23,574 bases of DNA from a virus (Duplodnaviria > Heunggongvirae > Uroviricota > Caudoviricetes): the IMG/VR virus record IMGVR_UViG_3300029843_000030, one strand, 5' to 3'. The position numbers and the translations under genes are program-made. Each line of letters begins with the position of its first letter. Position 1 is the stretch's first letter. The notes below the pieces were generated by a model that was given only the letters and a program-made list of their open reading frames with translations, did no database searches and was not told the DNA's origin. Below, one piece after another: positions 9,750 to 11,017 of this stretch.

Positions 9750-9902
9750 CTAACAGTCCGGCGTTTTCTTTTTCAGCAACGGGAAAGCAACAACCACCAC
9801 ACCCGCCACCAGCACACCGTCAGCCAGCACTGACATTATCCGGCTGCTGAAGTCCACCATCACCACCAGAAACAGCAGGAGCGCAACCACAGCCAGACGC
9901 AT
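9750..9902 (-). CDS. Possible small hydrophobic membrane peptide (50 aa, MRLAVVALLLFLVVMVDFSSRIMSVLADGVLVAGVVVVAFPLLKKKTPDC)
   Basis: Hand-found ORF below the track cut-off. Starts 9 nt downstream of the TerB-like gene stop; two hydrophobic segments. Confidence 0.35.
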   Translation of the reverse strand: MRLAVVALLLFLVVMVDFSSRIMSVLADGVLVAGVVVVAFPLLKKKTPDC

Positions 9903-9910
9903 TTTTACCG

Positions 9911-10342
9911 TCACAGATGATTCTCCAGACGAAGGCCCAGAACACCGGCAATCTCTTCCAGCACCTTGCGCTCTTCCGGCTCTATTTCGCCGTCTGCTTC
10001 GGCAATGGCCACCGCCACATCAAGCACATCTTCCGCTTCATGCGTATCGTGTTTCACATCCTCGATCTCCCGTAACGCCGCACGACGACCAATTTTAAAG
10101 TTCGTATCCAGCTGACCGATAATGGTTGCGCTAATCGCATTAATTTCTGACGTAAACGCGGACAAGGTGGGCTGGTTACGTAATACCTGTTCGATCTTCG
10201 CTTTCTCGGAAGCCTCACATTCACCATCGGCATAAGCCACCAGGTATGCGGCGTTAATCACCGCCTGGGCCAGATCGCGTTTTTCGAACTTTTTAATTTC
10301 CGCTGCCGCTCTACGGGTTTTCTTTTTGAAGATTCCAAACAT
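9911..10342 (-). CDS. TerB-like (tellurite-resistance TerB family) protein, 143 aa from internal ATG
   Basis: Two copies of the TerB-type ADG-x-E motif in helical context (AAYLVAYADGECEASEKAKIEQVL and VAVAIAEADGEIEPEERKVLEEIAGVLGL). AAGGAA Shine-Dalgarno before MFGIFKKK. Track ORF extends to 10414. Confidence 0.65.
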   Translation of the reverse strand: MFGIFKKKTRRAAAEIKKFEKRDLAQAVINAAYLVAYADGECEASEKAKIEQVLRNQPTLSAFTSEINAISATIIGQLDTNFKIGRRAALREIEDVKHDTHEAEDVLDVAVAIAEADGEIEPEERKVLEEIAGVLGLRLENHL

Positions 10343-10509
10343 CGTGACGTTCCTTTGGGTGGGTGAGCCAACGCCCGGGAGCGATCTGCCTACAGAGAAA
10401 GTCACACTGACCACTCCGTAAGCTCACCCCCGAAAGGCTCTGTGGTTGATATGCGCCGGGCGTGGCGCGGATACAAAAAAGGCCGCCAATAGCGACCTCA
10501 GTTACGGGA

Positions 10510-10740
10510 TTATTCTGGGGTTAAACGACTGTTACTCCCCCAGACAAAATCATCACTTCCTGTTCGATGCAAGCCATAGTGAACCTCGTACTTATCCCCC
10601 ATCTTTCTTGCTTCCGTTTCTGCGTCTTCCTCTGTCGCAAAAACCCCAACAAGATGCCAGGGCGAGCTTCTTACCACAGCCCAACCTTTAACCCATCCTT
10701 TGTTGTCCTTATCTTCCATTAACACTTCAGAAACAAACAT
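10510..10740 (-). CDS. Small protein of unknown function (76 aa, Trp-rich, acidic)
   Basis: Strong AAGGAGA Shine-Dalgarno with 5-6 nt spacer before ATG. MFVSEVLMEDKDNKGWVKGWAVVRSSPWHLVGVFATEEDAETEARKMGDKYEVHYG... Confidence 0.55.
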   Translation of the reverse strand: MFVSEVLMEDKDNKGWVKGWAVVRSSPWHLVGVFATEEDAETEARKMGDKYEVHYGLHRTGSDDFVWGSNSRLTPE

Positions 10741-10792
10741 ATTTATCTCCTTGTGGGTACCCAGAGATATTTTATGATTGCTCCCGGTCAGA

Positions 10793-11017
10793 TCAATAAA
10801 GTGGCTTCAATTTTGCCTTAATGATCAAATCAGGGTGATTGACGGAATCGTACACCACCTCAATATTTTCATCCGTGGCGTCGATAAGATATTCTTTTAC
10901 ATAAGGACCTGTTGATTTTCCATGAAATACATCTTCAACAAGTACACTCTCCCCCTGAACAACACGAAAACTAACTTCTGTTTCGAACGGACCAATCGTC
11001 ACCATCAGTTTTTTCAC
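10793..11017 (-). CDS. Small protein of unknown function (74 aa), paralog of 2852-3076
   Basis: AGGAGG Shine-Dalgarno 4 nt before a GTG start. MKKLMVTIGPFETEVSFRVVQGESVLVEDVFHGKSTGPYVKEYLIDATDENIEVVYDSV... Confidence 0.55.
   Translation of the reverse strand: MKKLMVTIGPFETEVSFRVVQGESVLVEDVFHGKSTGPYVKEYLIDATDENIEVVYDSVNHPDLIIKAKLKPLY

What the first reader, a model, noticed from the sequence alone, without database searches (positions are those of the whole stretch)
9750..11017. Cargo island at the stx-equivalent position: two small unknown proteins plus a TerB-like protein and a small membrane peptide
In 933W-type phages the slot between the late-region tRNAs and nanS-p carries stx. Here it holds four small genes with their own Shine-Dalgarno sequences: a 74-aa protein, a 76-aa Trp-rich acidic protein, a 143-aa protein with two TerB-type ADG-x-E motifs, and a 50-aa two-helix hydrophobic peptide immediately after it. 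A TerB-like sensor paired with a small membrane peptide, expressed from a prophage late operon, could be a minimal membrane-stress, abortive-infection or exclusion module. None of the four matches a family I can name apart from TerB.
Basis: partly seen in the sequence, partly recalled or inferred. Interest (0 to 1): 0.7.

Follow-up and report, generated by a model that had tools for sequence, protein, structure and literature searches.

The report
Phage tciA/tciB cassette in stx slot
The four small genes are real and sit exactly where Shiga-toxin phages carry stx, but the central pair is the catalogued phage tciA/tciB module (a TerB protein plus a DUF3927 membrane peptide), present in about 44% of complete E. 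coli genomes, so this is an ordinary locus whose function has never been tested.

Summary
On the minus strand, after three late-region tRNAs, lie four small genes with Shine-Dalgarno sites: gA (74 aa), gB (76 aa), a 143-aa TerB protein and a small membrane peptide. The peptide is 54 aa from a conserved GTG that overlaps the TerB stop (GTGA), not 50 aa from the ATG.

The island is not new. The TerB gene scores 60 bits on Pfam PF05099. The peptide is Pfam DUF3927. The pair is named tciA/tciB in phage P1. DNA matching tciAB occurs in 2363 of 5426 complete E. coli genomes, and the whole block is 99.9% identical to an annotated prophage in strain T309.Ta3.

The coupled pair recurs in 24 of 29 diverse loci, including virulent N4-like and jumbo phages. 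gA-gB is an optional insert of about 596 bp, flanked by a duplicated terminator and found in about 2% of genomes.

Homology with an Stx2a phage stops at the terminator after argO and resumes at an STnc100 sRNA gene. The block is therefore an alternative cargo to stxAB.

The most likely function, inferred and not shown, is a membrane-docked TerB ligand sensor made during lytic growth that protects or excludes at the inner membrane. It is unlikely to confer tellurite resistance or to defend the lysogen. Interest is low.

The parts
11107..11356 (-). Late-region tRNA cluster (ileZ-type tRNA-Ile2 CAT, tRNA-Arg TCG, tRNA-Arg TCT). It forms the upstream border of the cargo slot.
   Evidence: ARAGORN and Rfam tRNA hits. 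94% identical to ileZ-argN-argO of Stx2a_WGPS6.
11054..11093 (-). Intrinsic-terminator-like hairpin after the tRNAs. It is copy 1 of a 37-nt direct repeat, and homology with Stx phages ends here (11061).
   Evidence: Terminator scan, repeat family D4, blastn boundaries.
10793..11017 (-). gA: 74-aa acidic all-beta protein (PHROG 2571). It is a diverged paralogue of the small gene that follows Rz.
10510..10740 (-). gB: 76-aa Trp-rich acidic protein (PHROG 4280), function unknown.
10459..10499 (-). Second terminator-like hairpin, copy 2 of the 37-nt repeat. It marks the end of the optional gA-gB insert.
   Evidence: Phage Evi has a single copy that matches both window copies. The tRNA-to-tciA gap is 167-173 nt in 48 related loci and 764-766 nt in 16. 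The insert is 40-44% GC against 51-55% for tciAB.
9911..10342 (-). tciA: 143-aa stand-alone TerB-family protein. It has a basic N-terminal 22 residues, an acidic body and two ADG-x5-E motifs.
   Evidence: Pfam PF05099 at 60.1 bits. PHROG 632 at E=5e-69. 2jxu TerB at E=4.5e-8. 41% identical to P1 TciA and 70% to Erwinia jumbo-phage TerB. Invariant residues. Charge distribution.
9750..9914 (-). tciB: 54-aa DUF3927 membrane peptide. Its GTG start overlaps the tciA stop (GTGA). It has two hydrophobic segments, basic ends, and conserved D21, S28, D32, P45 and K48.
   Evidence: Pfam PF13064 at 80.9 bits. PHROG 1470. Overlap kept in 76/77 relatives. Present in 24/29 diverse TerB loci. Alignment.
9479..9684 (-). 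STnc100-family sRNA gene, copy 1. It forms the downstream border of the cargo slot.
   Evidence: Rfam RF02076 at 135.6 bits. The same sRNA follows stx2B in Stx2a_WGPS6 and tciB in Evi and JLK-2012. Homology with the Stx phage resumes at 9713.
8995..9201 (-). STnc100-family sRNA gene, copy 2 (tandem duplication, period about 484 nt).
   Evidence: Rfam RF02076 at 169.8 bits. Direct repeats D1 and D2.
6811..8772 (-). nanS-p type esterase gene (DUF1737 + SASA + DUF6645), split by frameshifts. It is the conserved gene after the slot.
   Evidence: Pfam, ORF list, 'frameshifted' pseudogene in NZ_CP128255.

Best explanation
The island is two separate modules placed in the cargo slot of a lambdoid late operon. 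The slot lies between the terminator after tRNA argO and an STnc100 sRNA gene, and Stx phages carry stxAB there.

The core module is tciA-tciB. It is a widespread, already catalogued two-gene phage cassette. TciA is a cytoplasmic TerB-fold protein with two conserved acidic motifs, which are thought to bind a metal or small ligand. TciB (DUF3927) is a 54-aa membrane hairpin made by translational coupling.

Proposed mechanism, with status of each step:
1. Shown here: family membership of both proteins, their coupling, and conservation of the pair.
2. Inferred: TciB sits in the inner membrane with both basic ends in the cytoplasm. It docks TciA there through TciA's conserved basic and hydrophobic N-terminus (MFGxFKKK). 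This would give a minimal counterpart of the TerB-TerC pair, or of the membrane-anchored TerB domain of DjlA.
3. Inferred: the pair is made only during lytic growth. In this prophage that would be by Q-antiterminated read-through of several terminators. In P1 it would be from the C1-repressed ban operon. In virulent phages it would be from early or middle regions.
4. Speculative: the pair stabilises or guards the energised membrane against superinfecting phage, pore-forming colicins or premature depolarisation. This would be a Ter-like 'Phi/PacB' effect without tellurite resistance.

gA-gB is an unrelated optional insert of about 596 bp holding two small soluble phage proteins of unknown function.
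For: Identity:
- PF05099 at 60 bits and PF13064 at 81 bits.
- PHROGs 632 and 1470.
- P1 tciA/tciB at 41% and 47% identity, in the same order and coupled.
- 2jxu TerB at E=4.5e-8 over residues 14-137.
- 99.9% identical annotated locus in NZ_CP128255.

Obligate pair:
- A DUF3927-like ORF starts -8 to +3 nt from the TerB stop in 24 of 29 diverse loci. These include P1, N4-like Pollock and SP-058, an Erwinia jumbo phage, LIET2, phiK7B1, a Klebsiella phage and 14 bacterial genomes.
- Two Pseudomonas phages have a different single-TM ORF overlapping by 4 nt instead.
- 76 of 77 close relatives keep the GTGA overlap.

Membrane docking:
- TciB has two hydrophobic segments, basic termini and conserved D21, D32 and P45.
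- TciA residues 1-22 carry +9/-2 charges and the rest carries 11 K+R against 25 D+E.
- TerB is reported as an interaction partner of membrane protein TerC (PMC11003894).
- TciA matches the DjlA TerB-like region weakly, at E=1e-6.

Lytic-cycle expression:
- 16 terminator-like hairpins in the scanned region against 4.2+/-2.6 expected, and no promoter-like site between 10343 and 10500 on the coding strand.
- In P1 the genes lie downstream of the C1-controlled Pban promoter.
- Homologues occur in virulent phages.

Slot:
- Homology breakpoints at 11061 and 9713 against the Stx2a phage.

gA-gB as an insert:
- 37-nt flanking repeat, two classes of tRNA-to-tciA gap length, lower GC, and 110 genomes against 2363.
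Against: No experiment on any TciA or TciB was found in the searched literature. P1 CRISPRi shows only that tciA, tciB and tciC are non-essential (PMC10695390).

Physical interaction between TciA and TciB is not shown. No TerB-DUF3927 fusion protein exists among 57 DUF3927 representatives. I could not model the complex.

The ligand of TerB domains is unknown. The promoter scan is a crude consensus test, so weak lysogenic expression is not excluded.

Three TerB-carrying phages lack any small membrane ORF downstream (K480, phiM5, BUCT194). The partner is therefore not universal.

None of the four proteins gave a convincing PADLOC match; the best hits were short and weak.
Confidence: 0.5

Rival explanations
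1. Lysogen-protecting defence: tciAB is expressed in the prophage state and acts as an abortive-infection or superinfection-exclusion system that benefits the host.
For: The R478 ter cluster confers phage inhibition and colicin resistance, as cited in PMC7371120 and PMC7824862. The pair sits in a moron hot spot. It is present in up to 8 copies per genome, so it is retained in prophages.
Against: Terminator-like hairpins stand before the pair, and no promoter-like site lies upstream of tciA. In P1 the genes are in the C1-repressed ban operon. Homologous pairs occur in strictly virulent phages, both N4-like and jumbo, where a function in the lysogen is meaningless. No convincing PADLOC model matched.
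Confidence: 0.15
2. Lysis-timing accessory: TciB acts as a small holin- or antiholin-like membrane peptide, regulated by TciA, that tunes when the S holin fires.
For: TciB is small, has two hydrophobic segments and has a charged C-terminus. In lambdoid phages the pair lies in the late operon about 3.5 kb upstream of the holin, endolysin and Rz genes.
Against: The window has its own class II holin (6171..5902) next to the endolysin. In P1, N4-like, Lana-type and jumbo phages the pair is not near lysis genes. P1 tciA, tciB and tciC knock-downs are non-essential.
Confidence: 0.12
3. Genuine tellurite resistance determinant, as the database product name says.
For: Homology to TerB. The product name 'tellurite resistance' appears in PHROGs and RefSeq.
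Against: No terC, terD, terE or terZ is in the window. The minimal plasmid construct described as conferring tellurite resistance is terBCDEF. The PMBT3 authors reach the same negative conclusion for a lone phage terB (PMC8421299).
Confidence: 0.03
4. Function tied to the neighbouring tRNA genes, for example a sensor or protector linked to tRNA supply or to anticodon-nuclease defence. On this view the tRNA-tciAB block moves as one unit.
For: tRNA genes lie within 2 kb of tciA in 10 of 30 diverse loci, including P1, an Erwinia jumbo phage, a Klebsiella phage and phiK7B1. They also lie directly upstream in about 64 of 80 close relatives.
Against: Twenty of 30 diverse loci have no tRNA nearby. 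The tRNA identities differ: Ile/Arg/Arg, Asn/Thr/Gly, Trp/Cys. stxAB occupies the same tRNA-adjacent slot, so adjacency looks like a property of the site and not of the cargo.
Confidence: 0.05

Closest known systems
Phage P1 tciA-tciB(-tciC) genes (ban operon)
   Same: Same two families in the same order with start/stop coupling. TciA is 41% identical and TciB 47% identical over full length. tRNA genes are adjacent, and the genes are repressed in the lysogen.
   Different: The window has no TciC. The pair is in a Q-dependent late operon, not a C1-controlled early operon. P1's functional label is 'by homology' only.
TerB of the terZABCDE(F) tellurite/phage/colicin resistance cluster (R478, K. 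pneumoniae; PDB 2jxu)
   Same: Full-length homology (E=4.5e-8, residues 14-137 against 20-144) and similar size (143 against 151-153 aa). Both acidic motifs are present. In both cases a membrane-protein gene follows directly.
   Different: The partner is a 54-aa DUF3927 peptide, not the large integral membrane protein TerC. TerD, TerE, TerZ and TerA are absent. Tellurite resistance is therefore not expected.
stxAB cassette of 933W/Sp5-type Stx phages
   Same: Same insertion slot to within tens of bases: after the ileZ-argN-argO terminator and before STnc100 and nanS-p. The cargo sizes are similar (about 1.33 against 1.35 kb). Regulation by Q read-through is presumed to be the same.
   Different: The proteins are unrelated and there is no toxin.
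DjlA (membrane-anchored DnaJ-like co-chaperone with a TerB-like domain)
   Same: A TerB-type domain held at the inner membrane. There is a weak profile match at E=1.2e-6 to DjlA positions 112-164.
   Different: In DjlA the anchor is in the same chain and a J domain follows. TciA has neither, and its score is far below the DjlA cut-off (28 against 162 bits).

Membership tests
TerB family (Pfam PF05099) | Profile score above the curated gathering threshold | tested here: met
   60.1 bits against 24.4, residues 26-138.
TerB family (Pfam PF05099) | Two conserved acidic motifs (A-D-G-x5-E type) in the N- and C-terminal halves | tested here: met
   D39/E46 and D117/E124 are invariant in 7 divergent phage homologues. 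The same regions align to 2jxu.
TerB family (Pfam PF05099) | All-alpha TerB fold | not tested
The fold is inferred from sequence homology to 2jxu only.
ter tellurite-resistance system (terZABCDE) | Co-occurrence with terC, terD and terE | tested here: not met
   No such genes are in the window or in the annotated 27.5-kb twin locus.
ter tellurite-resistance system (terZABCDE) | Raises tellurite MIC | not testable with these tools
   Needs cloning and MIC measurement.
DUF3927 / TciB (Pfam PF13064, PHROG 1470) | Profile score above threshold; about 50-aa protein with two hydrophobic segments | tested here: met
   80.9 bits against 25. PHROG hit at E=1.6e-24. Hydropathy.
P1-type tciAB module | TerB gene followed at once by a translationally coupled DUF3927 gene | tested here: met
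   GTGA overlap in the window. 76/77 close relatives and 24/29 diverse loci show the coupled pair.
P1-type tciAB module | Third small gene tciC | tested here: not met
   tblastn with P1 TciC finds nothing in the window. It is found only in P1 and one P1-like element.
Known anti-phage defence systems (PADLOC-DB v2) | Any component model matched | tested here: not met
   Only short, weak hits: TciA to PDC-S48 at E=0.003 over 35 residues, and gB to Cas7c at E=0.002 over 27 residues. gA and TciB gave none.
Holins | Small membrane protein encoded next to the endolysin that serves as the phage's lysis trigger | tested here: not met
   A separate class II holin lies next to the lysozyme and Rz genes about 3.5 kb downstream. 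TciB is not next to lysis genes in P1, N4-like or jumbo phages.
stx-equivalent cargo slot of lambdoid late operons | Flanks homologous to those of stxAB (ileZ-argN-argO with terminator upstream; STnc100 and nanS-p downstream) | tested here: met
   94% identity over 11356..11061. Homology resumes at 9713 and covers nanS-p.

The most novel reading that the evidence does not exclude
TciA-TciB is a self-contained, minimal two-protein version of the Ter system. Many unrelated phage lineages (lambdoid, P1, N4-like, jumbo) would deploy it during lytic growth. A ligand- or metal-sensing TerB domain, docked on a 54-aa membrane hairpin, would keep the infected cell's membrane energised or closed to competitors (superinfecting phage DNA, pore-forming colicins, depolarising abortive-infection effectors) until programmed lysis. 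The conserved Asp pair of TciB (D21, D32) would take part in ion or ligand handling. Under this reading, stx displaced a membrane-guard cassette in toxin phages.
Probability: 0.2. Interest if true: 0.55.

Novelty: already known. Interest (0 to 1): 0.22.

Why it matters
As a discovery it matters little. The genes are annotated in thousands of genomes and were named twenty years ago. The exclusion and colicin hypothesis has already been put forward by homology.

What this analysis adds is descriptive:
- The TerB gene and the DUF3927 peptide form one conserved, translationally coupled unit across very different phages, virulent ones included.
- In both temperate contexts examined (this prophage and P1), the unit appears wired for lytic-cycle expression, not lysogenic expression.
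- The unit and stxAB are alternative cargos of a slot with sharply defined borders.

tciAB DNA is present in about 44% of complete E. coli genomes, and no function has been measured. A simple knockout and over-expression study would therefore fill a real annotation gap for Stx-phage-like prophages. It would also give a tractable minimal system for asking what TerB domains do.

Tried and rejected

3. Search for a TerB-DUF3927 fusion as evidence of physical interaction. An exhaustive phmmer search with TciB found 57 representatives, all small stand-alone proteins. The one 176-aa hit (P0102) is a chimeric ORF with a phosphoglycerate-mutase-like N-terminus.

4. Broad survey in species-representative genomes. 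The second found only 15 loci because of pattern limits. These were still useful for the pairing test.

5. PADLOC gave only short, weak hits. The NCBIfam DjlA and YmfL hits are far below their cut-offs.

6. Literature. No experimental paper on tciA or tciB was found. The P1 genome paper could not be opened under the identifier I tried, which I gave from memory.

7. TciC. It is absent from the window.

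Full report
**Anatomy of the region**

The reported interval 9750-11017 is coding on the minus strand. Reading in the direction of transcription, the region holds these features in order:
- An antiterminator Q gene at 13259..12438 (Pfam Antiterm).
- A terminator-like hairpin at 12357..12338.
- A 239-aa multi-spanning ORF with no family match at 12198..11479.
- Three tRNAs at 11356..11107.
- A hairpin with a T-run at 11093..11076.
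- gA at 11017..10793 (74 aa).
- gB at 10740..10510 (76 aa).
- A second hairpin with a T-run at 10499..10479.
- tciA at 10342..9911 (143 aa).
- tciB at 9914..9750 (54 aa).
- Two STnc100-family sRNA genes at 9684..9479 and 9201..8995.
- A frameshifted nanS-p type esterase gene at 8772..6811.
- DUF1378, DUF826, holin, lysozyme and Rz genes.

Each of the four genes has a Shine-Dalgarno sequence, read directly:
- gA: AGGAGG.
- gB: AAGGAG.
- tciA: AAAGGAA.
- tciB: GGAG, located inside tciA.

The one correction concerns the small peptide. It starts at the GTG that overlaps the tciA stop codon (GTGA) and is 54 aa long. In 76 of 77 close relatives this overlap is kept.

**Identity of the four proteins**

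- TciA scores 60.1 bits on Pfam TerB PF05099, against a cut-off of 24.4.
- TciA matches PHROG 632 over its whole length.
- TciA aligns with the solved K. pneumoniae TerB (2jxu) at E=4.5e-8 over residues 14-137.
- TciB scores 80.9 bits on Pfam DUF3927 and matches PHROG 1470, 'TciB-like'.
- gA and gB match PHROGs 2571 and 4280, both of unknown function.
- None of the four proteins gave a convincing PADLOC match; the best were short weak hits for TciA (PDC-S48) and gB (Cas7c).

**The pair is a known and very common object**

- Phage JLK-2012 annotates the same pair as tciA/tciB, after Q and three tRNAs and before the nanS-p homologue.
- The names come from phage P1. There, tciA, tciB and tciC lie among tRNA genes in the C1-controlled ban operon. 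[quoted passage not shown]
- A P1 CRISPRi screen found all three genes non-essential (PMC10695390).
- The whole 1.5-kb block is 99.9% identical to an annotated prophage of E. coli T309.Ta3. RefSeq calls the genes 'hypothetical protein' (twice), 'tellurite resistance TerB family protein' and 'DUF3927 family protein'.
- tciAB DNA is found in 2363 of 5426 complete E. coli genomes, with up to eight copies per genome.
- gA-gB DNA is found in 110 of those genomes.
- A 2026 preprint lists TerB PF05099 among the conserved neighbours of the prophage sRNAs PasA and PasC.

**What this analysis adds about the pair**

I examined 29 diverse loci that hold a TciA homologue with readable downstream sequence.
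- 24 loci have a 49-59-aa ORF with two hydrophobic segments and the DUF3927 signature. It starts between -8 and +3 nt of the TerB stop.
- These 24 include P1, the N4-like virulent phages Pollock and SP-058, the Erwinia jumbo phage ChrisDB, Pantoea phage LIET2, Pseudomonas phage phiK7B1, a Klebsiella phage and 14 bacterial genomes.
- Two Pseudomonas phages (AF, Lana) have a different 71-73-aa single-span ORF that overlaps by 4 nt.
- Three phages (K480, phiM5, BUCT194) have no small membrane ORF downstream.

The TerB gene is thus almost always coupled to a small membrane protein.

TciB keeps D21, S28, D32, P45 and K48 across this range. Over long evolutionary distances it is more conserved than TciA. 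For example, identity to Pollock is 55% for TciB against 29% for TciA. Among close E. coli relatives, the last third of TciB falls into at least three allele classes on nearly identical tciA. This marks a recombination breakpoint inside the gene.

TciA has a strongly basic first 22 residues (+9/-2) and an acidic body with 11 K+R against 25 D+E. TciB has basic ends.

No TerB-DUF3927 fusion exists among 57 DUF3927 representatives. The physical interaction therefore remains an inference.

**The slot**

Against Stx2a_WGPS6, homology runs through the tRNAs and the terminator to window 11061. It resumes at 9713, just upstream of STnc100. In the toxin phage this interval holds stx2A-stx2B. STnc100 follows stx2B by 75 nt there, as it follows tciB here by 65 nt. 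The cargo is about 1.35 kb here and about 1.33 kb in the toxin phage.

**gA-gB is a separate, optional insert**

- It is flanked by a 37-nt direct repeat that includes the terminator hairpin.
- Phage Evi has one copy of that sequence, and it matches both window copies.
- In 80 related viral contigs, the gap from the last tRNA to tciA is 167-173 nt in 48 and 764-766 nt in 16.
- The insert is 40-44% GC, against 51-55% for tciAB.
- gA is a diverged paralogue of the 74-aa gene that overlaps the end of Rz in this same window, at 3076..2852. It is 41% identical over 54 aa.
- The gA model is confident (pLDDT 92, six strands). It resembles only generic beta-sandwiches.
- The gB model is weak and its fold search is uninformative.

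**Expression**

The 4-kb region around the island has 16 terminator-like hairpins against 4.2+/-2.6 in shuffles, most of them on the coding strand. No promoter-like site lies on the coding strand upstream of tciA.

Three lines of context point to production during lytic growth and not in the lysogen:
- The position behind Q.
- The C1-repressed setting in P1.
- The presence of the pair in virulent phages, next to nucleotide-metabolism or early genes.

This weakens the abortive-infection reading for the lysogen. It fits a role in the infected cell.

**Mechanism**

The steps shown here are family membership, coupling, conservation of the pair, slot borders and the insert structure.

The inferred steps are these:
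- TciB is an inner-membrane hairpin with both ends in the cytoplasm, by the positive-inside rule.
- TciB docks TciA at the membrane, by analogy with the reported TerB-TerC interaction (PMC11003894) and with the membrane-anchored TerB-like domain of DjlA (weak match).

The output is speculative. I propose protection of the energised membrane, or exclusion of competitors, during the latent period. This echoes the phage-inhibition and colicin-resistance phenotypes of the ter cluster.

Tellurite resistance is unlikely because terC, terD and terE are absent. The PMBT3 authors reached the same conclusion for their lone phage terB.

**Verdict**

Its function is untested, and that is the only open question. 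Interest is low, at about 0.2.

Noticed in passing
window 9684..9479 and 9201..8995 (- strand): Two tandem copies of the STnc100-family sRNA gene (Rfam RF02076, 136 and 170 bits), each with its own terminator hairpin, lie between tciB and nanS-p. The same sRNA follows stx2B in Stx2a_WGPS6 and follows tciB in Evi and JLK-2012. It therefore marks the downstream border of the cargo slot.
   Followed up: partly
window 22242..22293 (+ strand): A DicF antisense sRNA gene (RF00039, 76.7 bits) lies in the early-left region of the prophage.
   Followed up: no
window 12198..11479 (- strand): A 239-aa multi-spanning membrane ORF lies between the Q terminator and the tRNAs. It is 36-41% GC and has no Pfam hit. 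In strain T309.Ta3 the same gene is interrupted by IS903B. It is another moron of unknown function.
   Followed up: partly
window 8772..6811 (- strand): The nanS-p type esterase gene (DUF1737 + SASA ... DUF6645) is broken into at least three ORFs by frameshifts. It is annotated as a frameshifted pseudogene in the near-identical T309.Ta3 prophage.
   Followed up: partly
window 3076..2852 (- strand): A 74-aa paralogue of gA overlaps the 3' end of Rz (41% identity over 54 aa). Most members of this family sit after Rz and keep cysteines that gA has lost.
   Followed up: partly
window 9750..9810 (3' third of tciB) and loci L009-L088: A mosaic breakpoint lies inside tciB. Residues 1-36 are nearly invariant, while the C-terminal third falls into at least three allele classes on near-identical tciA backgrounds.
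   Followed up: partly
loci L001, L004, L005, L089, L092, L096, L097, L104, L111 and the window: tRNA genes lie within 2 kb of tciA in 10 of 30 diverse loci from unrelated phage types (lambdoid, P1, Erwinia jumbo phage, Klebsiella phage, Pseudomonas phiK7B1). The tRNA identities differ between loci. This is unexplained and may reflect shared moron hot spots.
   Followed up: partly
L006 (Pseudomonas phage AF) 1932-2153; L107 (phage Lana) 2438-2653: In these two phages the TerB gene is followed by a different conserved 71-73-aa protein, overlapping by 4 nt. It has one N-terminal membrane span and a Cys-containing C-terminal domain (CxWYGYQT...GCMV). It may be a non-homologous replacement of TciB.
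   Followed up: no
phage record PP818812.1 (Actinobacillus phage vB_Apl-pPE4) 17425-17623: A 191-nt stretch of tciA matches an Actinobacillus pleuropneumoniae phage at 86% DNA identity. This is unexpectedly high for such distant hosts.
   Followed up: no
L109 (Vibrio phage BUCT194) 424-843 and 2001-2426: This N4-like Vibrio phage carries two TerB-family genes about 1.2 kb apart, separated by a 339-aa membrane-protein gene.
   Followed up: no
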